Shown here: positions 831-60,624 of the stretch, piece by piece
How positions within the stretch are numbered: the first letter of the stretch is position 1
How the letters are laid out: every line of letters starts with the position of its first letter
Origin: Eledone cirrhosa
Taxonomy: Eukaryota
Length of the DNA stretch: 64,000 bases
Direction of reading: 5' to 3'
NCBI GenBank assembly: GCA_964016885.1
Contig: OZ024741.1
Coordinates: forward strand, 375,348,001 to 375,412,000
The notes under the pieces: model-generated
The model's database searches: none
Told to the model about the DNA's origin: nothing
The model's input: the letters and a program-made list of their open reading frames with translations, nothing else
Made by a program: the position numbers and the translations under genes

Positions 831-2007
831 GCGCAGGTGGGAGGAGTGCAGTTGATTAAATCGACTTCAGTATTTGATTGGTACTTATTTCCTAACCCCG
901 GAACGATGGAAAGCTAAGTTGGATCCACTGAGATTTAAACTCACGGGGAAAGGGCCATATCTAAATAACACAAATTAAAATGACATAATACCTAGTACAT
1001 ATTAAGTCTTACCACTTACAATTATACATCCACAATGAAAGTGCCAAAATTCTAACATTACAGGCATTTGGAGAATGTTGGATTTGTGTAATCGTTAAAA
1101 CGTCGGACAAATTCTTCGGGGTATTTGTTCTGGCTCATTATATTCTGAGTTCGAATCCTGCCGAGGTCAACTTTACTCTTTATCCTTCCAGGTCCGATAA
1201 AATAAAGTACCAACTTCCATTTAATCGACTTTTCCCCTCACTTACGTGTCACACATTTTTCTTTAACATTTCCACGAATAGGTGAAATTTACCAACACGC
1301 TACAATCTTGGATCGTATTCATTAAAAAAAAATGAAAAATCCTTAATACAATATTTAACTAGAATACAGTCGTGTCTTCTATTTAACATTTTAAAAAGAA
1401 AAGCTGTTTCTCACATTCATAAATACATATAAATATATATATATATATATATCTATGCAGATATATATACAACTTAGACTCTTCCGAACGAACAAAAATA
1501 GATTTTTCATTGTGGTGTACAATTAATAATAGGGAAGTCATATTAATAACACTATACAGTTTTGTTTTACGCCATGTCATGTAGTTCTCCGCAATTACTT
1601 ATAAGTACATACGCGGTGAACCTAACGAGAATGTGTTGTATTTATATGGGCGAACGTGAGAGTTAAAGTCATCAGGTTTATACCTCACACGTTTATAATC
1701 AAATATATAAACCACACTGGTTATTCGCATCATTAAATCTATTACAATAACCATCTGCGTTCAAGCTATAGGATAGAACACATTATTAAAAACAAAAACA
1801 GCAATTACGAAACAAACCTAAACAAAACAACAACTCAGATAACAAAACATAAAATACATTGTTCTCAATCGTAAGGTAATATTTTACAATTTACTTAGAA
1901 AATGAAAAAAATAATCCATTTAATCCATTCTTATGAATACCAAGCCATATAATGTGTGCGGGCGAACGTATGCTCGTCTATTACACACACACAAACACAT
2001 ATAACAT

Positions 2008-2183
2008 AATTGTTTCTACTTTTGGCACAAGGCCAGCAATTATTCTAGTGCATTACTGGTACTTTATTTTATCGACCTCGTAAGGATGAAAGGCAAAGCT
2101 AACCTCGGCGGGATTTGAACTCAGACCGTAAAGGGACGTAACTCTATGCTGCAAAGTATGGCGTCCGACCCTCTACCGATTGC
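2008..2183 (-). mobile_element. tRNA-derived SINE, group A short variant
   Basis: Reverse complement of GAGTTCAAATCCCGCCGAGGTTAGCTTTGCCTTTCATCCTTACGAGGTCGATAAAATAAAGTACCAGT..GCTGGCCTTGTGCCAAAAGTAGAAAC. Confidence 0.85.
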
Positions 2184-3270: not shown

Positions 3271-3877
3271 GTCAGGTCACCAGTTGGTGCTACTGGTAAC
3301 ATGTATTCCAGTACAACCTCTCTCATGGTCGGGTCGTTGGAGACTAAACTGGCACCCCCACCAAGGTTTCTTGGTGAGGAGGGTGACTTTGGACATCCTG
3401 CAGGACTAAAAACAAAACATGTCAAAGGGCAAAGGAGGTCTTAAGAGTCAATGGCCATCCAAAATCACCGGGAGAGATGACCCCTTAGCCTTTGTCAAGG
3501 CAGAATTCTAGGAGAAGGAAAACTCTGATATAACACCTGCAACCCTGATGGTATCCAATGATGTTGACTTGTTCTTTTTGGTAAATATCATCTTGGTTAA
3601 GAGAGTGGGACTGGCTTTGTGCAGTGCCTTTGCTCACTATAAAAGCTTCACGGCACAGGCATTGCTTTATATCTGGAGATCTCTCTGCACTTGCCGTCAC
3701 ATGGTACCATGGGCCCAGCATTATGTGTCAATAATTGTCACAAGTGTAGTGTTTGTACCAGAGTTTTCAAGTCGCTGGCTGGACTAAAAAGTCACACTCG
3801 TTCAGCGCATCAGTAGGGGTTCTCCTACATGGATATAAAGTAGTGGCCGTACTCGAAAACGAGTTGGCAGCCACCAT
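3271..3877 (+). mobile_element. ~600-bp non-coding retroelement with RTE-type 3' end (full-length copy)
   Basis: Near-identical to 59727-60332 and to 5'-truncated copies at 12627, 13005, 15569 and 59211. Ends in hairpin GCCGTACTC-GAAAAC-GAGTTGGC followed by AGCCACCAT. No tRNA head and no real ORF. Confidence 0.85.
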
Positions 3878-3899: not shown

Positions 3900-4085
3900 T
3901 CAGGACCTCGACGGCTGAGCTCCAGCCGTTTCGACAGCTAGATCCGAAACGGAGCTCAGCCGTCGGGGTCCTGATACGCCTAACGTCGAGTTCTTTTGCT
4001 AATGGCATCAGGGTCTGCTAATTGGAATGACTGGATCAGAAACCCAGAATCCTATTAGTTAAACCATCCAACGTAAACGCTACAC
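3900..4085 (+). mobile_element. Penelope-type terminal-repeat fragment with fold-back and hammerhead 3' half
   Basis: Inverted repeat 3900-3974. The minus strand reads GAAA-CGGC-tggagctca-GCCG-TC, a diverged relative of the 33399/47823/55734 family. Confidence 0.55.
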
Positions 4086-4149
4086 ACCTATACATACATA
4101 TATTCATAAGTACATAGGTACATAAGTACATACGTACATACATACATAC

Positions 4150-4325
4150 ATGATGGCCGCAAACTCATGTTCGAACATTGCGACGGCCTGATAAAATGCT
4201 TCAAAATGTGAGGCACGAATGTGACTCTTTAAACCAGCCAAACACTTGCACCCTCTGGCACATACATGGCAACTGTAGGCCCCTGTGGGACATTCCACTG
4301 CTTGCTTCTGACTGTGTGTTCTCAT
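4150..4325 (-). mobile_element. RTE-clade LINE 3' end with C-terminal C2H2 zinc finger
   Basis: ORF 4104-4325 has CHVCARGCKCLAGLKSHIRASH (C2H2), then 3' hairpin GCAATGTTC-GAACAT-GAGTTTGC, GGCCATCAT and a (GTAT)n tail. Confidence 0.7.
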
Positions 4326-4904: not shown

Positions 4905-5530
4905 ACCCACTTACTTCTGAGAAGGTCGTGGGGGACAGAGTCTTCCTCAAACACTCTTTCCAGTTAGTCAGTCAGAAGCAAACATCTCTAACTGATCCAG
5001 TTGGATCCCAAAGCGTGACCAGCCAAGCTCATGGATGTTATCCAACTATGTTGCTCAGGGTCTACCTCTGGGTCTCTTGCTGGTTGGTTTTGCCGGTAAA
5101 ATCTGTCCAGCGATTCTTTCCTGAGACATTCTAACCACATGCCCATAGTATCGGAGCCGTGATCTCTCAATCCGGAGAAGTAGCGGCTCTACCAAGAGTG
5201 ACTCTCTGATCTCTGAGCTATGCCTCTTATCCAGTAACGTTACTCCAAAGACCCTTCTGAGGAACCCCATTTCTGCCGTTTGTATTTGAAATTGTATTCT
5301 TTCGGTCTTTACCCAAGATTCATGACCCTCAGTAAGGGTTGGCAGAAATACCAGGAAGACAGCGAGTTTGGCTTTTACACCTACCTCCCTTCTTCTGATT
5401 ACTGAATGCTGAAGCTGGCGCATTACTGCATCAGCTTTTGCAATTCTTGTACTTAATTCAGCCTCCTGCCTTCCATCACACATGATACTTCAACTTCTCC
5501 AGCTGCTTCAGTGGAACTCCATTGACATGT
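4905..5530 (-). mobile_element. RTE-clade (Expander/Rex3-like) LINE, post-RT 3' fragment
   Basis: ORF 5055-5483: PTLTEGHESW..AEMGFLRRVFGVTLLDKRHSSEIRESLLVEPLLLRIERSRLRYYGHVVRM..KRPRGRP, the typical RTE C-terminus. Confidence 0.9.
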
Positions 5531-6962: not shown

Positions 6963-7450
6963 CCTCCATCCGCTTTCCTGTCGCCTTGTTGCCCTCAACA
7001 AGGTCATAAAGCCTGGCTTGGACGCTGCAGGCTTCCCTTCCCAGCTCGAGCCGGTGGGGCTGGACCGAGGGGGACGGCAAAAAGCCAGATGGCATGACCA
7101 TCTTCCCGTTCCGCGGTGGTAAACCCCTCGTCTTCTAGGATGCCACTTGCACCGACACTTTCTACAGCCGCAACCTGGTGCAGTCTGCGACTAACCCAGG
7201 TTCTACTGCACGTCGGGCTGAGGAGGCCAAACTCCTCAAATACCGGTCGATCTCCGACAGGTTTGCGGTTGTACCCCTGGCAGTGGAGACTTCTGGTGTC
7301 CTCGGCCCTAGGGCTACTTCCCTACTCACCGCCATAAGCGGTGAGTTGGCCAGCTGCAGGTGTGAGCCCCGCGAGTTGGAGTGGCTTTTCCAGCGCGTCT
7401 CCCTTGCCGTCCTCCGGGGAAACACCTTCTCCATTCTGTCCACCGGGGCT
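6963..7450 (+). mobile_element. CRE-clade LINE 3' fragment (RLE domain)
   Basis: HPLSCR..ALNKVIKPGLDAAGFPSQLEPVGLDRG, then AEEAKLLKYRSISDRFAVVPLAVETSGVLG..WLFQRVSLAVLRGN (ORF 7178-7549). Confidence 0.9.
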
Positions 7451-7608
7451 AGGAGGGGGGCGGGCGTCGCGTATCATTCCTTATTTAAGTATGATCGACA
7501 TTTTACACAAAGTCGCAGTTTCATCTTCGTAACTTATTCGAACACCTGATTTCCACGTCTTGTTTTATATATATATATATCTGCCACAGTCTCTTTGTAT
7601 CTCTCTCT

Positions 7609-12542: not shown

Positions 12543-12626
12543 ATATGTAAAAGGTAAACAGAAATAACAACACTATGTATGTATGTATGTATGTATGTAT
12601 GTATGTATGTATGTATGTATGTATGT

Positions 12627-12994
12627 AGAAGGAAAACTCTGATATAACACCTACAACCCTGATGGTATCCATTGATGTTGACTTGTTCTTCTTTTTGGTA
12701 AATATCATCTTGGTTAAGAGAGTGGGACTGGCTTTGTGCAGTGCCTTTGCTCACTATAAAAGCTTCACGGCACAGGCATTGCTTTATATCTGGAGATCTC
12801 TCTGCACTTGTCGTTACAGGGTACCATGGGCCCAGCACTATGTGTCAATAATTGTCACAAGTGTAGTGTTTGTACCAGAGTTTTCAAGTCGCTGGCTGGA
12901 CTAAAAAGTCACATTCGTTCAGCGCATCGGTAGGAGTTCTCCTACATGGATATAGGGCAGTGGCCGTACTCGAAAACGAGTTGGCAGCCACCAT
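12627..12994 (+). mobile_element. RTE-tailed non-coding retroelement, 5'-truncated, in (TATG)n
   Basis: Matches 3514-3877. (TATG)n on both sides. Confidence 0.85.
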
Positions 12995-13004
12995 GTATGT
13001 ATGT

Positions 13005-13560
13005 ATGGTCGGGTCGTTGGCGACTAAACTGGCAACCCCACCAAGGTTTCTTGATGAGGAGGGTGACTTTGGACATCCTGCAGGACTAAAAACAAAACCT
13101 GTCAAAGGGCAAAGGAGCTCTTAAGAGTCAATGGCCATCCAAAATCACCTGGAGAGATGACCCCTTAGCCTTTGTCAAGGCAGAATTCTAGGAGAAGGAA
13201 AACTCTGATATAACACCTGCAACTCTGATGGTATCCAATGATGTTGACTTGTTCTTCTTTTTGGTAAATATCATCTTGGTTAAGAGAGTGGGACTGGCTT
13301 TGTGCAGTGCCTTTGCTCACTATAAAAGCTTCACGGCACAGGCATTGCTTTATATCTGGAGATCTCTCTGCACTTGTCGTCACATGGTACTATGGGCCCA
13401 GCACTATGTGTCAATAATTGTCACAAGTGTAGTGTTTGTACCAGAGTTTTCAAGTCGCTGGCTGGACTAAGAAGTCACACTCGTTCAACGCATCGGTGGG
13501 GGTTCTCCTACATGGATATAAAGTAGTGGCCGTACTCGAAAACGAGTTGGCAGCCACCAT
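13005..13560 (+). mobile_element. RTE-tailed non-coding retroelement, 5'-truncated, in (TATG)n
   Basis: Matches 3325-3877. Followed by a (GTAT)n tail. Confidence 0.85.
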
Positions 13561-13640
13561 GTATGTATGTATGTATGTATGTATGTATGTATGTATGTAT
13601 GTATGTATGTATGTATGTATGTATGTATGTATGCATGTAT

Positions 13641-14048
13641 GTTCCTCTAGTTTTATAATTTCACACATTTTTTCCAATATAGAGAGTCGGTTTCTAACAT
13701 AGATACAATACTCTCTCATTGGAATTTAATCAACATCAACTAGGTAGATATGTACGCATGTCTGCATGCATGTGTGTGCAGGTATGGATGTTATTGTATG
13801 TGTGGATGTGTATGTTTTGAGTTATATCTGTGCATGTGCATATGCCTTGTATCTAGACATGTGTATACACGGTTATTAGATGCAGAATTTTTGGAATGTT
13901 TTACATATTTTTACTGTTCTATTAATGGATTGTACTTGTAATTTCCTAACTAGTCGTGTTCTTTCTGTTTCTGTGAAGCCCAGCTTCTCAAGATTTGTAC
14001 TGAGGCAGTTATAAATATATGTCAGTGCCCGAATAATCACATGCATAA

Positions 14049-14050
<2 letters not shown>
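13641..14050 (-). mobile_element. R4/Dong-like RLE LINE family 2, 3' end
   Basis: Minus strand encodes NCLSTNLEKLGFTETERTRLVRKLQVQSINRTVKICKTFQKFCI*, paralogous to the family 1 C-terminus. Second copy at 50262-50680. Flanked by (CATA)n. Confidence 0.75.
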
Positions 14051-14079
<29 letters not shown>

Positions 14080-14098
14080 TGTATGTATGTATGTATGT

Positions 14099-14965
14099 TA
14101 TCTCTTTCTCTTAATTTCGAGTATATTTTTTTTGACCGGCCACCTTCCTGGTGGCAAGGTTGTAAAAGAAAAGAAATTGTCATCCCTTGAATCGCAAGAA
14201 TGTTTTGCAAATTTTAAAGGTGCCAGCTATCGCAGCCATTTGTAGACTATGAATTAGGGAGCTGCGATTTTTGTCCGCAAATCCAAGTTCAGTCATACCT
14301 TGGTCCAAGCGGGTTGGTATATAACCCGTAGCTCCAATAATGATGGGTATGAAGCTAAAGTGTATCTTGGATACTGGATTTGTAAACTCCTCATCAATGT
14401 CCTCTTTCTCCTGTATTTTTCTGACAAGGTTTACATCAAGTGGGCAGCTGATCTCCACAACAGAACACGTTTTCAATGTGTGGTCCCAAACAACAATATC
14501 AAGCCGGTTGTGCTTTAATTTGGTGGCAGTTTTTATTTTCAGGTTCCACCAGTATTCCTTAGTGCCATCTGTCTCAATATATTCTTCCTCGTTTGTTGTT
14601 AATTTTGTTTTCCGAAGTGCGTTCCAGATGGTTCTAGCTATCCCATCGTGTCTCATGGGGAGGTAGTAGCGAGATGACATTCTTTCGTAGCTGGCAACAA
14701 TCTGGCTTACATTCTCGATCTTTGTTTTACATAGCCTACATTTATTGTCAGCTGATGGCCCTCCTCTTTTGTGCAGCAGATATTTGGTAGGGAGTTCTTG
14801 TTCCTGTATTGCATAGAGATATCCCTCAAGGTGTGATGTCATAAACTTGTCGGAACTCCATGCCAGGCTTTTTGAGTGGTTTATCCCCTCTATGGTCTGT
14901 GTTTTACGCCTCAAGTATCCATGCACAACTTTATCTGTAAATTGGTCAATTTTTTTAATTTTTTT

Positions 14966-14966
<1 letters not shown>
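14099..14966 (-). mobile_element. R4/Dong-like RLE LINE family 1, 3' ~870 bp
   Basis: ORF 14180-15061 has AIQEQELPT, zinc knuckle CRLCKTKIENVSQIV, RHDGIA, RLDIVVWD..VVEISCP (PD..D/E nuclease) and IPIIIGATG. Both ends lie in (CATA)n. Confidence 0.9.
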
Positions 14967-14997
<31 letters not shown>

Positions 14998-15041
14998 TGT
15001 ATGTATGTATGTATGTATGTATGTATGTATGTATGTATGCT

Positions 15042-15474
15042 ACCAGTACAACCTGTTTCATGGTCGGCCGTCGGTGACTAAACCGGCAACCGCACCAGGC
15101 TTACTTGGTGAGTGGGGTGTTATTTGGATACTCGGCGGGATGAAATACAAGACCCGGCAAAGGGTGGAGGAACTTAGCAGAGTCTACGGCCATCCAGATA
15201 GTACTTTTTTTTTACCTGGGAGTGAAAGGCCCCCAGTTGTTGTCACAACTCTTTCTAGGAGAGAGAAACTCTGAAAAAAAAAAAAAATTCCATGCTCAGA
15301 GAGTGGGATGAGTCGAGTGCAAGGCCTTTCCCCACTTAAAAAAACCTTCAAAGCACCGGCATTGCTCGTTAGGATCTGTTATAGGTTCGTATGGTTGGCC
15401 GTAGTCTAAAGGTGCACTATGTCTATAATCTGACAGGCGATTGCAATACTCTTTGCAGAGTTTGCGGCCATCAT
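15042..15474 (+). mobile_element. diverged relative of the RTE-tailed non-coding retroelement
   Basis: Shares CCAGTACAACCTG..GACTAAAC and CTAGGAGA..AAACTCTGA. 3' end GCAATACTC-TTTGCA-GAGTTTGC-GGCCATCAT(GTAT)n. Confidence 0.75.
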
Positions 15475-15568
15475 GTATGTATGTATGTATGTATGTATGT
15501 ATGTATGTATGTATGTATGTATGTATGTATGTATGTATGTATGTATGTTTGTATGTATGTATGTATGT

Positions 15569-15891
15569 ATGATGTTGACTTGTTCTTCTTTTTGTTAAAT
15601 ATCATCTTGTTTAAGAGAGTGGGACTGGCTTTGTGCAGTGCCTTTGCTCACTATAAAAGCTTCACGGCACAGGCATTGCTTTATATCTGGAGATCTCTCT
15701 GCACTTGTCGTCACATGGTACCATGGGCCCAGCATTATGTGTCAATAATTGTCACAATTGTAGTGTTTGTACCAGAGTTTTCAAGTCGCTGACTGGACTA
15801 AAAAGTCACACTCGTTCAGCGCATCGGTATGGGTTCTCCTACATGAATATAAAGTAGTGGCCGTACTCGAAAACGAGTTGGCAGCCACCAT
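15569..15891 (+). mobile_element. RTE-tailed non-coding retroelement, 5'-truncated, in (TATG)n
   Basis: Matches 3558-3877. Confidence 0.85.
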
Positions 15892-16254
15892 GTATGTATG
15901 TATGCATGTATGTATATAAGCATGCATGCTTGTATGTATGTGTGATAAACTTGTGGGTAGGGTAGTAAAATGTTATTATCGACTTGATGATGTACAGGGT
16001 GAGAGAAGAAAAAATAAGAGCAATTAGTTGCCGAACGCAGGTAGACGGTTGACTTGTAATAGTTCAATAAGGACTCGAGAGAAAATAATATCCAAAACGA
16101 ACATTTTTGGTAACCCCTTAAAATTATAGAGAAATCTTGTAGCAAATTTCGACACATCTGTATTATCTGTGTGTGTGTATGTTTGTATGTATGTGTAGAC
16201 GTATATATGTATGTATGTATGTGTGTGTATATATATATATATGCACATACACCA

Positions 16255-21168: not shown

Positions 21169-21351
21169 AGGATTGGCAGTATCGGTAGAGAGTCGGACAC
21201 CATGCTATGAAGCATAGAGTTACGTCCCTTTGTGATCTGAGTTCAAAACCCGCCAAGGTTAACTTTGCCTTTCATCCTTACGGGGTCGATAAAATAAAGT
21301 ACCAGTATTGTACTGGGTAATTGCTGGCCTTGTGCCAAAAGTAGAAACAAT
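21169..21351 (+). mobile_element. tRNA-derived SINE, group A
   Basis: A-box, B-box, central motif and 3' end all present. Confidence 0.85.
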
Positions 21352-21586
21352 ATATTAGTGAAATTTCACCGTACCTGGCTTCTCAGAAAGCTATTTTGGG
21401 CAACTTTGAAACAGACTCTATTTATTACTGCTCTTAACGTAGGTATAATGTCAGAAATTTAAGGAGAGAGATTTATTAATTACTTATACGTAATTTTAAC
21501 GAGACGGAGGAATGAAAGGTAAAACAAAGCGTATATATTAAAAAGAACGATGAAGTTTCGTTTACATTGGGTGACCCTGAGCCAAT

Positions 21587-22095: not shown

Positions 22096-22288
22096 GGAGG
22101 TGGATTGGCAGTATTGGTAGAGGGTCGGACGCCATGCTTTGACGCATAGAGTTACGCTCCTTGCCATTCTGAGTTCAAATCCCGGCGAGGTTAACTTTGC
22201 CTTTCATCCTTACAGGGCCCATAAAATAAAGTACCAGTAATGTACTGGAATAATTGCTGGCATTGTGCCAAAAGTAGAAACAATTATT
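22096..22288 (+). mobile_element. tRNA-derived SINE, group A
   Basis: Full-length match to the family. Confidence 0.85.
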
Positions 22289-23142
22289 AAGCACCACTAT
22301 TAAGGGCTATTCTCCTTTTTCATATTTATTTTACTGATTTCTGTCATTAGACTGTGGCCATTTTGGAGAAACGATTTAATTTAGTCGATTATATTATCAC
22401 CAGTATTATGTTTTAAGTTTATTATAGTTTTCGTACACTAACACGTGAACACTCTCGTTTTTTCAAATTTTCATCTTGGAGCTACTTCTCTTTGTTATAC
22501 GTTTTTAGCACGCATTACTTTTAATATAGCAGAACATTCAGCTGGATAAATGAGTTGTACTTGTAATTCAATGGGCCAATCTTTTCTTACATTGTGTCAC
22601 GCCGAATTTTCCTGCGAACTACATTAAAACTGCCTGTGTTAGTATTAATTTGCTGAACAGGCAGTTCCGTTGATTATATCAACTGCAGCACCCATCGTGT
22701 GAGACGACGGAGGTCCAACACCAACTTGCTCACCATGTATGTTTGTGGTCTGTTGACTATCAAATTATAAACTGCTTGCTGCCACGTCTGTTTACCATAT
22801 GTTAACTACAGTCAGTTCACGCTCACTGAACAATATTTATATACACTACTATATACTAAAGTGTTCTTTCACTAATCCCCCCCCCCCCCCCCCTGGATTG
22901 CCTTCCTCCCAAGCACCTTCATTGTCCAAAATATTCTCTCAGACTATACATTGCAGTGAACCAATGTGAGAGGGAGACTTGCTAGAAGTAGCAGCTAAAT
23001 TTTCATCAAACCACACTCTCCTGTTTTACGAAAACAAAGAGCACTTTGGATAATATTACTCTAGATATACTGCCTGAAAGAAAGGATTGTCAGGTAACGT
23101 CTTTGATCATTGGCAATTTCGATTAGAGATAACCTGGAGCTA

Positions 23143-24946: not shown

Positions 24947-25790
24947 ATGTTATAGAGTTGTATGTTACACTGTTGCCTGTTACATTATTATATGTTACAG
25001 TTATGTTACAGTTATGTTACAGTATTATGTTACAGCATTATATGTTACAGTGGTTATATGTTACTGCATTATATGCTATAGTGTTATATGTTACAGTATG
25101 TTACAGTTATGTTACAGTATTATATGTTACAGCATTATATGTTACGGCATTATATGTTACAGCATTATATGTTACAGTGGTATATGTTACTGTATTATAT
25201 GTTACTGTATTATATATTACTGTATTATATGTTACAGTATATGTTACAGTTATATGCAGCATTATATGTCACAGTGGTCTATGTTACAGTTTATGTTACC
25301 GTATTATATGTTACAGCATTATATGTTACAGTGGTATTCGTTACTGTATTATTTGTTACAGTATATGTTAAAGTATATGTTACAGTATCATATGTTACAG
25401 TATATGTTACAGTATGTTACAGTATATGTTACAGTATCATATGTTACAGTATTATATGTTACAATGGTATGTTACTGTGATATATGTTACAGTATATGTT
25501 ACAGTATATGTTACAGTATATGTTACAGTATCATATGTTACAGTATATGTTACAGTATCATATGTTACAGTATATGTTACAATGGTATGTTACAGTGTTA
25601 CATGTTACAGTATATGTTACGGTATATGTTACAGTATCATATGTTACAGTATATGTTACAGTATTATATGTTACAATGGTATGTTACAGTGTTATATGTT
25701 ACAGTATATGTTACAGCATATGTTACAGTATACATTACAGTATGTTACAGTATTGTATGTTGCAGCTGTTTACTTTACAGTGTTCTGTAT
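24947..25790. repeat. minisatellite of 10/12/15-bp units with core ATGTTACAGT
   Basis: Dozens of TATATGTTACAG(TAT) variants over about 840 bp. Confidence 0.95.
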
Positions 25791-29405: not shown

Positions 29406-29733
29406 GAGGGCGGTGGATTGGCAGTATCAGTAGAGGGTCGGATGCCATGCTTTGCAACAAATAGTTACGGCCCTTTATGATCTGAGGTCAAATCCCGCTG
29501 AGGTTAACTTTGCTTTTCATCCTTACGGGGTCGATAAAATAAAGTACCAGTAATACACTGGGATAATTGCTGGCCTTATGCCAAAAGTAGAAACAATTAT
29601 TTTAACCCAGGTGAGGGCGGTGGATAGGTACAATTGGTAGAAGGTCGGACAAAAGATTTTGCAGTATTTAGTTACGACTTTCTACGTTCTGAGTTCAAAT
29701 CCCACTGAGGTAATCTTTGCCTTCCATCCTTCC
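29406..29733 (+). mobile_element. two group A SINEs head-to-tail
   Basis: Full copy at 29406-29601, followed by a 5' half at 29613-29733. Confidence 0.8.
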
Positions 29734-30279: not shown

Positions 30280-30474
30280 AGAAATGGCTTCTGCAGGACT
30301 AGAACTGTTTCATTCGAAGGAAATCATCAGGAAAGCCGACTGTCGATGTAATATGGTGGTATTTATACATTTTCTGTAGGTAGATGTATAAATACCACCA
30401 TATCACATTACCAGTCGGCTCTCCTGATGATTTCCTTCGAATGATACAGTTCTAGTCGTGTAGAAGCCATTTCT
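30280..30474. repeat. inverted repeat, ~92-bp arms (fold-back of a microsatellite-flanked element)
   Basis: AGAAATGGCTTCT..GGTATTTATACAT / ATGTATAAATACC..AGAAGCCATTTCT. Contains CTGATGA..GAAAC. Confidence 0.85.
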
Positions 30475-32562: not shown

Positions 32563-33080
32563 ATGATGGCTGCCCCCTCGTTATCGAGTATGGCCATTGC
32601 ACGATATACCATTATTAATAATAATTAATTAATTCTATCGTGCAATGTCTGTGCGTGAAGGTCTTTTTTTAAGTGAGGAAAGACGGTGCACTGAGCCAAT
32701 CCCACTCTCTGAGCGACAGTAGCTATAACCCGAAAAGAAGAACAGATCAACATCATCGGTAACTACTGAGCCGCAGGTTTTATATCGAAGTTATCCCAGT
32801 TTCCTGAGTTGCCTTCTCCTAGAAAAATGCTCTGACAGAGGCTAGGGGTCCTTCACTCCCAGTGATTTAACCGCGTGATCGGGTTTCCAGCCCGACTATT
32901 TCTATGTCCTCGCGCATATACATACACATGCACCCATGTATATATACACATACATATACATACATATGTACATGTGTATATACATATTTACACACAATTT
33001 GATGACCGTTGACTCTTATGAGTTCTTCTGCCCTTTGTCAGGTTATGTTTTTGTCCTGCAGGGTGTCCAAAATCACCATA
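32563..33080 (-). mobile_element. diverged RTE-tailed non-coding retroelement fragments
   Basis: Minus strand has CTAGGAGAAGGCAACTC and 3' end GCCATACTC-GATAAC-GAGGGGGC-AGCCATCAT. The piece at 32998-33078 matches the element's 5' third. Same subfamily at 50696-50868. Confidence 0.7.
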
Positions 33081-33398: not shown

Positions 33399-33588
33399 GA
33401 AAAAGTATGACCCCGACGGCAGAGCTCTAGCCGTTTTGACGGCTATTTCTGGAGTCCAGAAATAGCTGTCGAAACGACTTGAGCTCTGCCGTCGGGGTCA
33501 TACTTTTCCTATTACCCACTCTACTACCCTAAGTATTGAGTACTCTGGTGCGTTATGGTCCATCTGGTTCCTTACCACAATTCCTTCG

Positions 33589-35321: not shown

Positions 35322-35459
35322 GTGAGGTTTTTTTTTACAAATTGAAAAATAACAGAGGTGTCCTACACGAGTGAAAGTATAAAGAAAAAGAGATGAAATC
35401 GAAAATGCAACTGGAATCTTATTTTAAAAAAAATACATATATATATATTTCTTTGGTTC

Positions 35460-35495
35460 CTTTACCGGTTTCGCAGTTCTTCTGCTTTTCAAAAG
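35460..35495 (-). ncRNA. minimal type I hammerhead, U3:A8 core variant
   Basis: Minus strand CTT-TTGAAAA-GCAG-AAGAA-CTGC-GAAA-CCGG-TA-AAG. Confidence 0.7.
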
Positions 35496-35560
35496 TAGAG
35501 TTGAGATGGAGGGCCTGTGTTTTTTCTCACATCGATGTGAGAAAAACCATCTCAACTCTA

Positions 35561-35596
35561 CTTTTGAAAAGCAGAAGAACTGCGAAACCGGTAAAG
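35561..35596 (+). ncRNA. minimal type I hammerhead, U3:A8 core variant (inverted copy)
   Basis: CTT-TTGAAAA-GCAG-AAGAA-CTGC-GAAA-CCGG-TA-AAG. Confidence 0.7.
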
Positions 35597-35663
35597 GAAC
35601 CAAATAAATATATATATTTAAAAAAAAAAAAATAAGACTCCAGTTGCATTTTCGATTTCATCT

Positions 35664-37061: not shown

Positions 37062-38635
37062 CATATATATTTACAACACGTCAAAACTACAACATTCCAC
37101 TATCAGATGAGTGTCAGATCATTTAAAGGTCAGGCAGAGCAAGTAAGTCACTTTAAAATAATTATACAGAAGAAAAAAAACGTATAGTCAAGTAATAAAA
37201 GGCATTTGCTATTGCAGAAAGACAAGCGAGTAAATTGTGGTCTGGTCACACAGTTGACCCTCTGGCTCACGTCAGCTATGTTGCATATCTTTCAGTTTAA
37301 TCTATGGCAGATGACACTATTAGGGCAGATTCACTACAGACACAGATGTTGAAACTAACGTACGGAGAACATTCGCTTTTGTTCTAGCGGGTGTCACTGG
37401 TTATCATCCGGGGGAATACTTTTGCCGTCTTGTCCGCGAAGCGCAGCACTTCTACCCTCTGGCCCTATGCACAAAGCCTAATCACTCCTCCTTCACCCCA
37501 TTCTTCGATTTAATTGACTACTCCTCAAAACAATTGTTGGCCTTGTGCCTAAATCAGAAACCATTACTTAGAAATTATAATTTGTCCCGGCTTTTTACGT
37601 TCTGAGTTCAAATCCTACCGAGGTGTTAACTTTGTCTTTCATCCTTACGGGGTCGATAAAATAAAGTACCAGTAACGCACTGGGTTAGATTTTATCGACT
37701 TTCCCCCCTCCCTCAAATTTGCTGGCTTTGTGCCTAAATCAAAAACCAATATTACTGTTGCTGTTGTTATCATTACTGCTGCTGTTATTATTTTCCATCG
37801 CTCTCACAGCCGCCGCCGCTGTCGTTATTGTTGCTGCTGCTGCCGTTGCTGTTATTGCCGCAGGTGATGTTGTTATTGAATTTGTGGTTCTTACTGCTGC
37901 TACTGTTGCTGCTGTTATTTTTTCTAGTTGTTATTGATATAGTTGCTAATGCTGTCGACTGTTGCTATTGTCCTTATCGCAATTATTTGTTTTCAAAGAC
38001 TAACAATCGCACATTTTCATTTCAAAACAGTTTTCATGACTGAAGGCAGAAATGGTGGAGGCGGAAAATATGGAAGAGGGGAGGAGTGGAGGAGAATGGA
38101 AGGAGGAGGAGGGAGGAGTGGGGGATAAAGGGGGCAGGAGCAGAATGTAAAAGATGAGGAGTGAATAAATAGACAGTTGAAGATGGATAAAATTGGAAGA
38201 ATACACAATATTTGGAAATGTGTATATGTGTGTATTTGTGTGTGTGTGTGTGTTTGTGTGTGTGTGTTGGATCTCCGTCAGTTCCAGCCATATGTGTTGC
38301 TCTCAGTTATTCGAACAACAGAACCCATTTGTGAAATTAACGTGAAAGTGGCAGAGCATTCCAAAGGCACGGAGATCCTTATTGTAGTTCTAGGGGTATT
38401 CAGTGACACAGTGTGTGAGAAGGCTGGCCACTGGAATTAGAACTACAGCTGAGTAGACTAGAGAAACGTGAAACAATGTTTTGGTCAGGTACCGCTAGGA
38501 ATTGAACTCACAACCTTACGATCGTGAGCCCCAAACCTGAACCGCTAAGCTATGCGCTTTCACCGGAAGAAGACGATGGAAAACATAGAAGACTATGAAT
38601 GAAGTTGCTGCTGTTGATAAGCCATTAAGTAACCG

Positions 38636-38824
38636 AGGGCGATGGATTGACAGTATCGGTAGAGGGTCGGACGCCATGCTTTGACGCATAGAGTTACGGC
38701 CCTTTCCATTCTGAGTTCAAATCCCGTCGAGGTTAACTTTGCCTTTCATCCTTATGGGTCGATAAAATAAGTACCAGTAATGCACTGGGTAATTGCTGGC
38801 CTTGTGTCAAAAGTAGAAACAATT
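38636..38824 (+). mobile_element. tRNA-derived SINE, group A
   Basis: Full-length match. A truncated copy lies at 37595-37750. Confidence 0.85.
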
Positions 38825-40165
38825 AAATAACCGAGGTGACCTTTGATTAACGACAATCCAGCCCATGACCATCCAGGACCAGTCTGACGTTTTTCAGGTA
38901 TGGTTTACCCCGTTCGTCACTATCCAGTATGTTTTTATACAAGACTAGAGGGTGTCATTTGATGGAAATTCAATTGCTAATTTTTGCAAATCAAGCTATA
39001 ACATATAGACTGTTGGTTTGACAGATAAATAGAAAGTAAAGGAGACGGCAAAGGGGAGGGGGAGTTGAAGAGAGAGTGGGAGAGAGAGAGGGAGAGGGAG
39101 GGGAGTGGGAGAGAGAGTGGGAGAGAGAGGATAAGAGAGAGTAAACGAAGGGTGGCTAAAAGTGTATAGAGAAAAAATGTAGCATAAATATGAGAGAGAG
39201 AGAGAAAAAGAGAGAATGTGAAATGAAGAGAGAGAGAGAGAGGGGGGAGGGCGAGAGACAGAGGAAGAGAGAAAGAGAGTAGAGGGAAAGAGAAAAAGAA
39301 ACTGTAAAATGGAGAGTGGGAAATCAAAGAGTAAAGAAGAGAGAAAAGTGAGAGAGTAAAAAGAAAAGAGAAAACGAAAGGAAACAAGAAGGAACAAATG
39401 TAAATAAAAGTTAAGAAAAGTGTGATTGCCCTAGAGCTCTGTGTTATAAGTCATAGATGTTGCACTGTTATAAGAAACCTGATGGAGATAACGTGCTTAG
39501 TATTGCTACGATTGCACTAAATATTCCCTTTGTTCAATGACCAAACTGTTAACGTGATGGTGGAGCAGCAACCAGCAAGATCGAAAGATAAGTTTCGCTC
39601 TCGCTCTGCCAACAAACTAATTTCGAAATTTAGATACGTCAGCAATATTACTCCCTTTCTTGTGTGTTTTGTTTCATTTTATTTTTCTTCTTATTTTCTT
39701 CTTTTATTTTATTATTGTATCATTTTCTTTTCAGTAAGCAACTTTGTTCAACAAATGAGAAAATATTGCCCTTATCCTTTTGCTGTTGATTAGAAAAACT
39801 GTCGAAGATTAGAGAGGTAGATTGGGAGAGGAGTTGAACGAACCCTGCAGTCTACCTGTTTTAGTAATATCTAAAATAAATATAATCATATGAATTTAGC
39901 ATCTTTTAAAATGACAATCTTCAATTGGTATGATAATATTCAATATTGATCTACTCAGAATAGTTGCATTCAAGCAATTCAGATGTTTCAAGACAAACTT
40001 CATAAAATACTGTAAAAATAACAAAGAAAACAAAACAAACACAAAATACTAAAACCTAAAGTAAAATTTTTACTCTAACTGTATTAATTTACATAATTAC
40101 TCTAAATTAAATTACTCTAATCAGTAATTTTTTTCCAATGCACATTTCCGCCGGGTATATAATAT

Positions 40166-44736: not shown

Positions 44737-44961
44737 CAGCTATCTCAGTAGCCGTATGAGAATGTAAGACACATATTTCTGAATTTTGGTGGGATATAGG
44801 GGCGTTCTGATGCAGCCACTGAGATAGCTGTGACATGATCACTACTTTAAATAATCATAGCAAACACCAAGCGTGTTTATTATACATATACATTTCGTAT
44901 ATGCCTTCATATACACCTCATATCATGAACCACGTCATGTTAGTGCTACTGCTAATTAATT

Positions 44962-45137
44962 ATTTCTACATTTTGGCACAAGGCCAGCAAATTACCCAGT
45001 ACATTACTGGTACTTTATTTTATCGACCCCGTAAGTATGAAAGGCAAAGTAAACCTCGGCGGGATTTGAATTCAGACCGTAAAGAGACGTAACTATGCTG
45101 GAAAACATGGCGTCCGACTCTCTACCGATACTGCCAA
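44962..45137 (-). mobile_element. tRNA-derived SINE, group A
   Basis: Reverse-strand match. Further copies at 45440-45594 (+) and 46030-46135 (-). Confidence 0.85.
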
Positions 45138-45240
45138 TGAAGTTCGCACTATATGCAAATGAGCATTTCCAACCGATCTCTCATGTCTCAAATAGCATAT
45201 TATCTATAAGCTTCTTTTGTCTCAGTACCGATTAAGTAAA

Positions 45241-47822: not shown

Positions 47823-47995
47823 TAGGAACAAAGCTCAAGCCGTTTCGACGGCTATTTCTGTCCAGAAATAGCCGTCGAAACGGCTTGAGCTCTGCCGTCA
47901 GTGTCATACTTGTTCCTATTACCCACTCTACTACCCTAAGTATTGAGTACTTTGGTGCGTTATGGTCCATCTGGTTCCTTACCACACTTCCTTCG

Positions 47996-48033
<38 letters not shown>

Positions 48034-48167
48034 CGAAGGAAGTGTGGTAAGGAACCAGGTGGACCATAACGCACAAGAGTACTCGATACTTTGGGTAGTA
48101 GAGTGGGTAATAGGAACAAGTATGACCCCGACGGCAGAGCTCAAGCCGTTTCGACGGCTATTTCTGG
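47823..48167. mobile_element. two copies of a Penelope-type repeat, tail-to-tail around (TA)n
   Basis: 47863-47997 and 48032-48167 are reverse complements. The left copy carries an additional 5' fold-back. Each has GAAA-CGGC-ttgagctct-GCCG-TC. Confidence 0.8.
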
Positions 48168-49956: not shown

Positions 49957-50261
49957 ATATACATATATTATAAAGTGAAATGACAGGAGGCCAAATATGT
50001 TGAATTTCCTTAATTTTTTTATTTCTGTAAACACTATGGACATTTCAGTGGCCAGGTTGCGTAAGAACCCGGTGACCTCATCAGGTGCAAATTGTGTAAT
50101 AGATGTATACCAACGGAATGATGGTAAGCTTTAAGGAAACAAGCAAAGAAAAAACAGAGAGGAAAATATGTGTGCTATATTTTTGACCCAGAGACAGACG
50201 TAGTAGTATGTTTCCACACTGCTAGCCCGTACATACATACATACATGCATACATACATACA

Positions 50262-50680
50262 TGATTACACCTTCAGATTTATGCCTGTGATTATTGGGGC
50301 ACTGGGGTAGTAACTGCCTCAATACAAATCTTGAGAAGCTAGGGTTCAGAGGAACAGAAAGAACACAACTAGTTAGGAAATTACAAGTACAATCCATTAA
50401 TGGAACAGTAAAAATGTGTAAAACTATCCAAAAATTTTGCATCTAATAACTGCATATACACATGTACAGATACAAAGCATATACACATGCACACATACAA
50501 CTCAAAACATACACATCCACACATACAATAACATCCATATCTACACATGCATGCAGACATACATACATATCTACCTAGTTGATGTTGTGTAAATTCCAAT
50601 GAGAGAGTCTTGTGTCTATGTTAGAAACCGACTCTCTCTCTATTGGTAAAACTTTGTGAAATTATAAAACCAGAAGAACA
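50262..50680 (+). mobile_element. R4/Dong-like RLE LINE family 2, 3' end
   Basis: FRFMPVIIGALG..NLEKLGFRGTERTQLVRKLQVQSINGTVKMCKTIQKFCI* plus 3' UTR. (CATA)n on both sides. Reverse complement of 13641-14050. Confidence 0.8.
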
Positions 50681-50695
50681 TACATACATACATAC

Positions 50696-50868
50696 GTGAT
50701 GGCTGCCCCCTCGTTATCGAGTATGGCCATTGCACGATATACCATTATTAATAAGCGTGAAGATATTTTTTAAAGTGAGGAAAGACTGTGCACTGAGCCA
50801 ATCCCACTCTCTGAGCGACAGTAGCTATAACCCGAAAAGAAGAAAAGATTAACATCATCGGTAACTAC
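50696..50868 (-). mobile_element. diverged RTE-tailed non-coding retroelement, 3' part, in (CATA)n
   Basis: Matches 32563-32766. Confidence 0.75.
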
Positions 50869-51214
50869 ATACATACATACATCATAAGCTGCAAATGTTT
50901 AAAATGTATAGGGGTATGTTAAACTCTGATTAAATCATTATCTGATATAAGACTAAAAAGCGAAATGTGAAGATTACATATTTTTTTATAACACAAGAAT
51001 AAGTGACAATTACTCAATTTTAGCATAGAAACTCATATCAAGCTTTAGTTTGAAAATCAAAGGTGTTAGCTTGTGAAAAGGAAAAAATAGTCGTGGCTAT
51101 CTTGCTGATGCGTGTTAAGTGTGTTCTAAGAGAATGGAGAGTGTGAGAAAGATAAGGGAATGATGGTTTGGGGACGGTAAGGTTATATTAAGTGAATTGT
51201 GTGGAGAAATCAGA

Positions 51215-58636: not shown

Positions 58637-58667
<31 letters not shown>

Positions 58668-58745
58668 TGTATGTATGTATGTATGTATGTATGTATGTAT
58701 GTATGTACGTATGTACGTATGTATGCTTGCATGTATGTATGTATG

Positions 58746-59007
58746 TTTTCTCTTTCTCTTAATTTCGAGTATATTTTTTTGACCGGCCACCTTCCTGGTG
58801 GCAAGGTTGTAAAAGAAAAGAAATTGTCATCCCTTGAATCGCAAGAATGTTTTGCATATTTTGAAGGTGCCAGCTATCGCAGCCATTTGTAGACTATGAA
58901 TTAGGGAGCTGCGCTTTTTGTCCGCAAATCCAAGTTCGGTCATACTTTGGTCCAAGCGGGTTGGTATATAACCCGTAGCACCAATAATGATGGGTATGAA
59001 GCTAAAG
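58746..59007 (-). mobile_element. R4/Dong-like RLE LINE family 1, 3' end
   Basis: Matches 14099-14360. (CATA)n on both sides. Confidence 0.88.
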
Positions 59008-59210
59008 GTGTATGTATGTATATATGTATATATGTATATATGTATGTACGTACGTAAGTATGTATGTATGTATGTATGTATGTATGTATGTATGTATGTA
59101 TGTATGTATGTATGTATGTATGTATGTATGTATGTATGCTTGTATGTATGTATGTATGTATGTATGTATGTATGTATGTATGTATGTATGTATGTATGTA
59201 TGTATGTATG

Positions 59211-59661
59211 GGCAAAGGAGCTCTTAAGAGTCAATGGCCATCCAAAATCATCGGGAGAGATGACCCCTTAGCCTTTGTCAAGGCAGAATTCTAGGAGAAG
59301 GAAAACTCTGTTATAACACCTGCAACCCTGATGGTATCCAATGATGTTGACTTGTTCTTCTTTTTGGTAAATATCATCTTGGTTAAGAGAGTGGGACTGG
59401 CTTTGTGCAGTGCCTTTGCTCACTATAAAAGCTTCACGGCACAGGCATTGCTTTATATCTGGAGATCTCTCTGCACTTGTCGTCATATGGTACCATGGGC
59501 CCAGCACTATGTGTCAATAATTGTCACAAGTGTAGTGTTTGTACCAGAGTTTTCAAGTCGCTGGCTGGACTAAGAAGTCACACTCGTTCAGCGCATCGGT
59601 GGGGGTTCTCCTATATGGATATAAAGTAGTGGCCGTACTCGAAAACGAGTTGGCAGCCACC

Positions 59662-59663
<2 letters not shown>
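59211..59663 (+). mobile_element. RTE-tailed non-coding retroelement, 5'-truncated, in (TATG)n
   Basis: Matches 3428-3877. Confidence 0.85.
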
Positions 59664-59694
<31 letters not shown>

Positions 59695-59726
59695 TGTATG
59701 TATGTATGTATGTATGTATGTATTAT

Positions 59727-60332
59727 GTCAGGTCACCAGTTGGTGCTACTGGTAACATGTATCCCAGTACAACCTGTCTCATGGTTGGGTCGTTGGCGAC
59801 TAAACTGGCAACCCCACCAAGGTTTCTTGGTGAGGAGGGTGACTTTGGACATCCTGCAGGACTAAAAACAAAACCTGTCAAATGGCAAAGGAGCTCTTAA
59901 GACTCAATGTCCATCCAAAATCACTGGGAGAGATTATCCCTTAGCCTTTGTCAAGGCAGAATTCTAGGAGAAGGAAAACTCTGCAACCCTGCAACCCTGA
60001 TGGTATCCAATGATGTTGACTTGTTCTTCTTTTTGGTAAATATCATCTTGGTTAAGAGAGTGGGACTGGCTTTGTGCAGTGCCTTTGCTCACTATAAAAG
60101 CTTCACGGCACAGGCATTGCTTTATATCTGGAGATCTCTCTGCACTTGTCGTCACATAGTACCATGGGCCCAGCACTATGTGTCAATCATTGTCACAAGT
60201 GTAGTGTTTGTACCAGAGTTTTCAAGTCGCTGGCTGGACTAAAAAGTCACACTCGTTCAGCGCATCGGTAGGGGTTCTCCTACATGGATATAAAATAGTG
60301 GCCGTACTCGAAAACGAGTTGGTAGCCACCAT
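59727..60332 (+). mobile_element. RTE-tailed non-coding retroelement, full length, in (TATG)n
   Basis: Same 5' start GTCAGGTCACC as 3271; (GTAT)n tail. Confidence 0.88.
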
Positions 60333-60437
60333 GTATGTATGTATGTATGTATGTATGTATGTATGTATGTACGTATGAATGTATGTATGTATGTACGCAT
60401 GAATGCATGTATGTACGTATGAATGCATGTATGTATG

Positions 60438-60624
60438 TTTCTCTTTCTCTTAATTTCGTGTACATTTTTTACGGCCACCTTCCTGGTGGCAAGGTTATAA
60501 AAGAAAAGAAATTGTCATCCCTTGAATCTCAAGAATGTTTTGCAAATTTTGAAGGTACCAGCTATCGCAGCCATTTGTAGTCTATGAATTAGGGAGCTCC
60601 GTCTTTGTCCACAAATCCAAGTTC
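60438..60624 (-). mobile_element. R4/Dong-like RLE LINE family 1, short 3' end
   Basis: Matches 14099-14290. Lies in (CATA)n. Confidence 0.85.

What the first reader, a model, noticed from the sequence alone, without database searches (positions are those of the whole stretch)
12575..15950. (TATG)n nests: an RTE-tailed element may seed the microsatellite that R4/Dong-like elements target, with fixed opposite polarity
Seen: three nests (12575-15950, 50230-50880, 58637-60930) consist of retroelement pieces separated only by TATG/CATA repeats. In every case the ~600-bp element family reads TATG on its sense strand, and both Dong-like families read CATA on theirs. This also holds in the 50.2-kb nest, where everything is reversed. 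Truncation points differ between nests, so these are independent insertions. Established: RTE elements end in short tandem repeats, and Dong/R4 RLE elements are sequence-specific, some targeting microsatellites. Inference: a feed-forward system in which one clade makes landing pads and others colonise them.
Basis: partly seen in the sequence, partly recalled or inferred. Interest (0 to 1): 0.75.

Follow-up and report, generated by a model that had tools for sequence, protein, structure and literature searches.

The report
Opposite-strand retrotransposon nests in TATG repeats
In this likely octopod genome, two unrelated kinds of jumping gene sit inside the same TATG/CATA repeats and face opposite ways, likely because each cuts a different strand of a repeat that was already there; the idea that one kind's tail builds the repeat for the other failed its tests, although one such element does carry other short repeats in its tail region that later elements land in.

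Summary
The three nests are real and arose by independent insertions. D1/D2 are R4/Dong-type elements. Sampled copies sit in (CATA)n with fixed polarity: D1 28/29 at the 3' end and 27/29 at the 5' end, none reversed, against about 2% background. The ~600-bp element is a bipartite RTE derivative.

Seeding by its tail is not supported:
- It has TATG upstream of its 5' end too (44 of 53 copies with a TATG tail).
- Copies in (TA)n have (TA)n tails.
- Only 14/58 Dong copies abut an RTE tail, while 13/58 have the RTE on the side where the tract cannot be its tail.
- 20/32 random TATG tracts hold neither clade.

Both clades most likely colonise pre-existing tracts from opposite strands. Feed-forward does occur in another form: a young RTE LINE carries (TG)n/(TA)n/(TTA)n/TATG-like repeats in its 3' UTR. 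In 8/28 copies this UTR has later insertions, 4 of them (TAA)n-type Dong and none D1/D2.

A (CATA)n target for Dong was not found in the papers searched. This scan has reported both results before on other DNA of this genome (e.g. e1-9925753, e1-9986280). New variant of a known kind.

The parts
12574..12627 (.). (TATG)13 tract upstream of the 5' junction of the first A copy; cannot be its tail
12628..12992 (+). Family A, bipartite non-autonomous RTE derivative, 5'-truncated (242-603 of reference)
13005..13558 (+). Family A copy (54-603); holds the C2H2-finger remnant homologous to the RTE ORF end
13559..13641 (.). (TATG)n tract between the A 3' end and the D2 3' end (tail-to-tail)
13642..14053 (-). 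D2, older R4/Dong-type family: ORF end plus 3' UTR; 87% to the reference copy
14050..14097 (.). (TATG)12 tract between D2 5' end and D1 3' end
14098..14965 (-). D1, young R4/Dong-type family: CCHC + RLE coding end and 3' UTR; full-length copies about 4.25 kb elsewhere
14968..15039 (.). (TATG)18 tract between the D1 5' end and the C 5' end (head-to-head; tail of neither)
15040..15472 (+). Family C, older bipartite RTE derivative
15473..15575 (.). (TATG)n tract
15569..15889 (+). Family A copy (283-603), followed by degenerate TATG to about 15941
50264..50678 (+). D2 copy in nest 2, CATA on both sides
50697..50868 (-). Family B (RTE-derived) 3' fragment in nest 2, TATG on its sense strand on both sides
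58746..59013 (-). D1 copy in nest 3 (3978-4246)
59211..59661 (+). Family A copy (157-603)
59728..60330 (+). Full-length family A copy (reference used)
60440..60624 (-). D1-like copy, 92% to reference
3272..3875 (+). Full-length family A copy outside any TATG tract: (TG)n before, (TA)n after; counter-example to a fixed TATG tail
4148..4300 (-). 3' end of RTE LINE family E (APE+RT+C2H2 in longer copies), followed by TATG on its sense strand
32563..33077 (-). Family B copy, (TG)n at the 5' side and short TATG at the 3' side

Best explanation
R4/Dong-type elements (D1, D2) and RTE-derived elements (A, B, C and their LINEs) both lie inside (TATG/CATA)n tracts with repeat on both sides and in opposite orientation, likely because each clade nicks a different strand of a tract that was already there. 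Dong likely recognises (CATA)n through its N-terminal Myb/SANT-like domain and restriction-like endonuclease, priming on the TATG strand. It likely needs repeat upstream, since its 5' tracts are longer than its 3' tracts. The RTE elements end in CC-AT, with a native tail that looks like (CAT)n. They likely need a primer ending in AT and a T/A nick. On a TATG/CATA duplex only the CATA strand offers both, while (TA)n offers both on either strand; this would explain the TATG polarity and the many copies in (TA)n. Each insertion leaves repeat on both sides, which would regenerate targets and build nests. Shown: junction sequences, polarity, nest geometry, domains. Inferred: nick positions, primer pairing, domain roles, regrowth of tracts.
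For: D1: CATA at 28/29 3' and 27/29 5' junctions, 0 TATG. D2: 25/29 and 19/28, 0 TATG. Background about 2% (top-hit copies, window copies excluded). All 8 Dong 3' ends in a blind 1-Mb sample are CATA. A/B/C: TATG at 53/87 3' and 53/87 5' junctions, CATA at 1 each; 44 of 53 copies with a TATG tail also have TATG within 70 nt of the 5' junction (background 6.6%). 18/87 3' flanks start (AT)5. 3' flanks start ATGT 35, ATAT 32, ATAC 1 of 87 (for B the terminal AT of the reference was counted as flank). All 7 resolved 5' junctions of RTE LINE G lie in TATG/TA. RTE tail directly 3' of Dong in 14/58; RTE head directly 5' of Dong in 13/58. RTE present in the nests of 25/58 Dong, versus 11/32 random tracts (p=0.50) and 9/17 long tracts (p=0.58). 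D1 5' run longer than 3' run (mean 11.2 vs 7.0 units, Wilcoxon p=0.006, n=28). D1 residues 21-85 fold like Myb/SANT-type DNA-binding domains (Z 4.5-5.8).
Against: In the blind sample 4 of 5 Dong-holding tracts also held an RTE element; all five are long tracts. 9 of 53 RTE copies with a TATG tail lack TATG at the mapped 5' junction; several of these are 5' inversions or old copies, but a minority of de novo tails is not excluded. Long tracts carry elements more often than short ones (10/17 vs 2/15, p=0.012), which fits preference but also fits insertion lengthening tracts. Informative target-site duplications were rare (8 of 143 copies, against 1.5-5% for mismatched pairs), so insertion sites cannot be placed to the base. 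The 5'/3' run asymmetry was not seen for D2 (p=0.15). D2 has 9/28 5' junctions without CATA by the script. Top-hit samples favour young copies. No empty orthologous site and no biochemistry were examined.
Confidence: 0.8

Rival explanations
1. One reading: RTE elements create (TATG)n as their 3' tail, and Dong elements colonise those tails.
For: RTE elements do make tail microsatellites in Lepidoptera (PMC2887409). 14/58 Dong copies abut an RTE tail. 4 of 5 Dong tracts in the blind sample also hold RTE. 9/53 TATG-tailed RTE copies lack 5' TATG.
Against: The repeat is bilateral in 44/53, whereas that paper describes RTE-made repeats as one-sided. The tail mirrors the target ((TA)n tails in (TA)n; window 3272-3875). 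44/58 Dong copies have no RTE tail next to them. Head-to-head is as common as tail-to-tail. 20/32 random tracts hold no such element. In nest 1 the D2 copy looks older than the A copy whose 'tail' it abuts (best other-copy match 94% vs 99%).
Confidence: 0.07
2. Mutual amplification: tracts start by slippage, but every insertion of either clade duplicates and splits the tract, and both halves regrow, so insertions raise the number of targets. This is compatible with the best explanation.
For: Nests of up to 7 elements (L295). Long tracts are enriched for elements (10/17 vs 2/15). Single clear duplications of 17-21 bp at D1 (L010, L020) and 12-21 bp at A/B (L043, L181). RTE LINE G demonstrably spreads internal repeats that others enter.
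Against: Duplications are not above the mismatched-pair rate as a class. Enrichment in long tracts is equally explained by preference. D1/D2 were in 0/28 G UTRs.
Confidence: 0.4
3. No targeting: elements insert at random and survive mainly in microsatellite-rich, tolerant DNA.
For: The genome is very rich in purine-pyrimidine repeats (9.2% of windows).
Against: Strict strand polarity, a fixed register at the 3' junction, and over 90% occupancy for D1 against 2% background cannot come from survival alone.
Confidence: 0.02
4. Nests are block duplications or assembly artefacts.
For: Some D1 truncation points recur at different loci (3978 in window 59013, L006 and L024).
Against: Order, truncation and flanks differ between nests, and self-BLAST shows only element-sized matches. 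Recurring breakpoints lie at unrelated loci and start with CATA-like bases of the element, which fits microhomology.
Confidence: 0.01

Closest known systems
Dong / R4 clade (Bombyx Dong, DongAg, DongBg, ostracod Dong1/2)
   Same: Single ORF with RT, CCHC and C-terminal restriction-like endonuclease; N-terminal Myb/SANT-like fold without zinc fingers; inserts in a microsatellite with fixed polarity (PMC7998251, PMC3812793, passages read).
   Different: [quoted passage not shown] A (TAA)n-type Dong in the same genome is only 30% identical to D1 over the 417 aa compared.
Waldo elements (WaldoAg1/2, earwig Waldo)
   Same: Target ACAY repeats, which include ACAT = CATA (PMC3812793, passage). So this repeat is already known as a retrotransposon target.
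   Different: APE-type insect elements (R1 clade, recalled), not RLE-type; no second clade on the opposite strand in the passage read.
RTE elements with 3' microsatellites (lepidopteran RTEs; RTE-related SINEs; bipartite non-autonomous RTEs such as RTESINE, Bov-A)
   Same: APE+RT LINE; bipartite 5'UTR+3'end derivatives (PMC5786205); a 3' repeat proposed to guide cleavage or priming (PMC6007223).
   Different: Lepidopteran RTE sites are described as not sequence-specific and their repeats as one-sided (PMC2887409). Here the repeat is on both sides and the tail changes with the target.
RTE-2_OV of Octopus vulgaris
   Same: RTE with a C2H2 finger whose 3' UTR is mostly microsatellite (PMC9115989, passages), like family G.
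   Different: No target preference, nesting or use of the UTR as a landing site in the passages read. Identity with G was not tested because the sequence was not at hand.

Membership tests
R4/Dong clade (D1, D2) | Single ORF with non-LTR reverse transcriptase | tested here: met
   L154 holds a ~1,170-codon frame with one stop; RVT_1 E=5.7e-25; best PDB sequence hits are R2 proteins
R4/Dong clade (D1, D2) | C-terminal CCHC and PD-(D/E)xK restriction-like endonuclease, no APE | tested here: met
   zf-RVT E=7e-6; CCHC and RPD...EISCP motifs read from the translation (motif identity recalled); no Exo_endo_phos hit
R4/Dong clade (D1, D2) | N-terminal Myb/SANT-like domain without zinc fingers (PMC7998251) | tested here: met
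   Residues 21-85 form three helices at high pLDDT. Top VIA-align rows include Zeste, Sap1, GT-1, TRF1, DMAP1 and RAD-MYB domains, Z 4.5-5.8, a middling level; Foldseek gave no E<=0.001 hit. No zinc-finger hit in the N-terminal 297 aa. D1 only
R4/Dong clade (D1, D2) | Placement in the R4 clade by RT phylogeny with named references | not testable with these tools
   No named R4/Dong reference among the 120 listed homologues; no tree built
R4/Dong clade (D1, D2) | Sequence-specific insertion in a repeat | tested here: met
   CATA at 28/29 and 27/29 D1 junctions
Dong in the strict sense | (TAA)n target | tested here: not met
   D1/D2 flanks are (CATA)n; separate (TAA)n-type families exist in the genome
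RTE clade (E, G) | Single ORF with N-terminal APE and RT | tested here: met
   E: Exo_endo_phos_2 E=9e-6, RVT_1 E=6e-11, C2H2 fingers. G: APE-RT-finger frames read in L273, open frames up to 1,243 aa
RTE clade (E, G) | Placement by RT phylogeny with named RTE references | not tested
   Assigned from domain order and recalled RTE motifs
Bipartite non-autonomous RTE (A, B, C) | 5' part from LINE 5' UTR and 3' part from LINE 3' end, no intact ORF | tested here: met
   A/B/C positions 1-400 match the region ahead of the ORF in L261 (68-84%). The A finger remnant matches the E C-terminus (tblastn E=4e-6). Shared 3' terminus. B shares its 5' region and 42-bp tail with G
RTE as microsatellite generator (PMC2887409) | Repeat on the 3' side only; insertion not sequence-specific | tested here: not met
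   Bilateral in 44/53; 5' junctions in TATG 53/87 against 2.4% background

The most novel reading that the evidence does not exclude
Octopod genomes run a microsatellite-based succession among retrotransposons. A separate R4/Dong lineage has switched its endonuclease and Myb-like domain from (TAA)n to (CATA)n. An RTE lineage has become a strand-selective microsatellite specialist through its CAU RNA end. The active RTE LINE ships a 3'-UTR cassette of (TG)n/(TA)n/(TTA)n/TATG-like repeats that serves as a mobile landing pad for Dong, Tx1-like and its own short derivatives, and after growth of its TATG-like part possibly also for D1/D2.
Probability: 0.45. Interest if true: 0.65.

Novelty: new variant of a known kind. 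Interest (0 to 1): 0.5.

Why it matters
It offers a natural pair for studying how RLE retrotransposons change target: (TAA)n- and (CATA)n-type Dong families, both young and near-intact, in one genome. It shows an RTE lineage, a clade described as unselective, confined to specific repeats with strand choice; this makes the proposed role of the RNA 3' end in site choice directly testable. It also corrects a common reading, that a repeat behind an RTE element was made by it. The UTR-borne pads give cases where the order of insertion is fixed by sequence and one clade spreads targets for another. It explains part of the clustering of the two most active octopus LINE groups (RTE and Dong-R4, PMC13282606 Table 1), if the same holds there.

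Tried and rejected
- Target-site duplication scan: 8 of 143 copies gave informative duplications, not clearly above the 1.5-5% mismatched-pair rate, so it is not used as support.
- Protein search with the 54-aa A remnant against longer proteins: none of 8 candidates scored. The link to RTE came from genome loci instead.
- The RTE-like fragment at window 5055-5489 was considered as A's partner and rejected: its 3' end differs.
- DNA search for family G returned nothing, probably because very common words are skipped; the protein query found it.
- Foldseek gave no hit at E<=0.001 for the D1 N-terminus.
- The short 'mini-B' tails with T-rich 5' flanks first looked like de novo seeding; they proved to be the tail of LINE G, whose UTR is low-complexity.
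- Hand corrections: the 57-bp D2 hit in L134 was treated as low-complexity noise, and the diverged Dong fragment in L128 was counted as part of its nest. Two groups (L116, L143) probably merge two tracts each.
- L323-L325 share flanks and were counted once (30 loci, 28 copies, including the query copy).
- Literature: nine searches found no report of (CATA)n-targeting Dong or of RTE/Dong co-occupancy. Kojima & Fujiwara 2004, Repbase entries and subscription papers were not available, PMC4400214 is not held, and no supplements were read. Repbase or supplementary annotations of octopus Dong-R4 could already record the target.
Full report
Setting. The window is G000:C2:375348001-375412000 of a 3.0-Gb genome. 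A D1 homologue from Argonauta hians is 61% identical, so the animal is probably an octopod; this was not pursued further.

Observation. The three nests exist as described. Masked self-BLAST shows only element-sized matches among them, and order and truncation points differ, so they are independent stacks. The short element is really three related families (A, B, C). The window also holds a full-length A copy at 3272-3875 between (TG)n and (TA)n with no TATG.

What the elements are. D1 is about 4.25 kb in full length (L153 and L154 start at the same base). It has one long frame with RT (E=5.7e-25), CCHC and a C-terminal restriction-like endonuclease motif. Its predicted N-terminal three-helix domain aligns best to Myb/SANT-type DNA-binding domains, at middling Z 4.5-5.8. 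That is the architecture reported for R4/Dong (PMC7998251, passages). No phylogeny with named references was possible. D2 is a second, older family (about 4 kb; copies mostly 85-95% alike, D1 mostly 95-99%). A, B and C are bipartite RTE derivatives. Their first ~400 nt match the region ahead of the ORF of an APE+RT+C2H2 LINE (family E, L261), and their 3' ends match its terminus; A keeps a finger remnant. A younger LINE, family G (40,308 first-look candidates, top copies 97-98% aa identity, open frames to 1,243 aa), shares B's 5' region and 42-bp tail.

Junction test. I took the 30 best genome matches of each family, dropped the window's own copy, and extended 20 long Dong copies upstream. D1 has CATA on its sense strand at 28/29 3' and 27/29 5' junctions. 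D2 has it at 25/29 and 19/28. Neither has TATG at any junction. Background is 1.9% CATA and 2.4% TATG in 600 kb of blind sample. All 8 Dong 3' ends in a 1-Mb blind sample are CATA. A/B/C show TATG at 53/87 3' and 53/87 5' junctions and CATA at one each; most of the rest sit in (TA)n or (TG)n. Nest neighbours are parallel within Dong (29/29) and antiparallel between clades (29/29 and 42/45, the three exceptions being inverted pieces inside RTE copies). Targeting and polarity therefore hold beyond the window.

Seeding test. A tail-made repeat should be one-sided; PMC2887409 (Discussion read) describes lepidopteran RTE repeats this way and RTE sites as not sequence-specific. Here 44 of 53 RTE copies with a TATG tail also have TATG within 70 nt of their 5' junction (background 6.6%). 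Copies in (TA)n have (TA)n tails (18/87 start (AT)5). All 7 resolved 5' junctions of LINE G are in TATG/TA. If Dong used RTE tails, its 3' end should face an RTE 3' end. This holds for 14/58 copies (12 by script plus 2 of family F found by motif), while 13/58 have an RTE 5' end against their own 5' end, where the tract is nobody's tail. RTE elements occur in the nests of 25/58 Dong copies, no more than in random tracts (11/32, p=0.50) or long random tracts (9/17, p=0.58). Twenty of 32 random tracts of at least 4 perfect units carry none of these elements; several grade out of (TA)n, (CA)n or (GA)n. In nest 1 the D2 copy looks older than the A copy next to it. Against my reading: 4 of 5 Dong tracts in the blind sample also hold an RTE; 9/53 TATG-tailed RTE copies lack mapped 5' TATG; and long tracts are enriched for elements (10/17 vs 2/15, p=0.012), which could mean that insertion lengthens them.

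Likely mechanism (inferred). RTE 3' flanks begin with AT in 76/87 copies: ATGT 35, ATAT 32, ATAC 1. The native tail looks like (CAT)n: 6/29 B copies have an extra unit and one F copy about eight. A primer ending in AT that pairs with the RNA end, plus the T/A nick usual for APE endonucleases (recalled), is offered by the CATA strand only. That would give TATG on the element's sense strand and allow either orientation in (TA)n. PMC6007223 (Discussion read) proposes such a role for RTE 3' repeats. Dong would prime on the TATG strand. Its 5' runs are longer than its 3' runs (D1 11.2 vs 7.0 units, p=0.006; not seen for D2), as expected if the protein binds repeat upstream of the cut. Each insertion leaves repeat on both sides, so nests grow. 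Target-site duplications could not be shown as a class.

Where feed-forward is real. The 3' UTR of G (225-460 nt when uninterrupted) is a chain of (TG)n, (TA)n, (TTA)n, degenerate TATG, (TA)n and T/TTA runs ahead of the tail. In L308 the two halves of one G copy enclose a Tx1-like element and a (TAA)n-type Dong, both at the internal (TTA)n, so G came first. Among 28 independent G copies, 8 carry later insertions in this UTR: 4 (TAA)n-type Dong of two families, all antiparallel; 1 Tx1-like (class inferred from its ORF1-like frame); 1 family A in the TATG-like part; and 2 palindromic elements. Both UTR halves are visible in 4 of the 8. None carries D1/D2. In the blind 1 Mb, 1 of 10 (TAA)n-Dong 3' ends lies directly in a G UTR, so G is one source of pads among several.

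Comparison with what is known. Dong elements are reported on (TAA)n in insects, molluscs and cnidarians (PMC7998251, PMC3812793; passages). ACAY repeats are already known targets of APE-type Waldo elements (PMC3812793). RTE and Dong-R4 are noted as active LINEs in Octopus, and RTE-2_OV has a microsatellite 3' UTR (PMC9115989, passages; PMC13282606, first third and passages); no target or nesting is described in what I read. I also read PMC5786205 and PMC4640811 as passages and PMC13295347 as abstract only. Nine searches found no (CATA)n-targeting Dong and no RTE/Dong co-occupancy. Repbase, subscription papers and supplements were not seen.

Earlier notes of this scan, read after my reading was recorded, report the same co-occupancy on other DNA of this genome, and one reports the UTR pad at about one copy in six. 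They are unreviewed and are not counted as evidence.

Verdict. Real and well supported as targeting with opposite polarity; the seeding claim fails for TATG; RTE-borne pads exist for (TAA)n users. New variant of a known kind, interest 0.5.

Noticed in passing
L273:2400-6390; L309-L338; L308: Young RTE LINE (family G) whose 3' UTR is a chain of microsatellites; 8 of 28 copies have later insertions there, 4 by (TAA)n-type Dong.
   Followed up: yes
window 59013; L006; L024 (D1 position 3978) and other D1 5' ends: The same D1 truncation point recurs at unrelated loci, where the element reads CATA-like bases; suggests microhomology-guided 5' joining.
   Followed up: no
L153:2475, L154:2511: Full-length D1 copies start directly behind another D1 3' end, in L154 with only CAT(A) between them; tandem arrays could allow read-through transcription.
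   Followed up: partly
L007, L183, L194, L198, L205, L225, L226, L261, L331, L335, L337: Frequent 5' inversions in RTE-family copies, as from twin priming.
   Followed up: no
window 50475-50570 and 13750-13850; L087:1615-2260: D2 carries a degenerate CATA-like stretch inside its 3' UTR, and B/E a TATG/TG-like stretch inside the 5' region; both could grow into new tracts.
   Followed up: no
L118:9190-9500: A (TATG)26 run inside what looks like a Helitron-type short element (resemblance recalled); a possible third source of tracts.
   Followed up: no
L170 (G000:C4:276780800-276787800): Interstitial (TTAGGG)n-like array followed by (TATG)15 and a truncated G copy.
   Followed up: no
window 5055-5489 (-): Fragment of a different RTE-type LINE with a GAAGA-type 3' end, not tied to TATG.
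   Followed up: partly
window 2000-2180, 21170-21357, 22096-22290, 29406-29614, 38635-38839, 44950-45138 and others: Abundant ~190-bp SINE-like family with more than 15 copies in the window, unrelated to the nests.
   Followed up: no
window 30289-30465, 33410-33579, 35329-35598, 47829-48160: Palindromic (fold-back or MITE-like) elements next to (TA)n runs; similar elements sit in G UTRs.
   Followed up: no
window 24978-25761: Degenerate tandem array of a ~12-15-bp TATGTTACAG-type unit, about 780 bp.
   Followed up: no
window 7139-7549 (+): RLE-type C-terminus (...VVPLAVETSG...LQRVSLAVLRGN-like) from another, older retroelement family.
   Followed up: no
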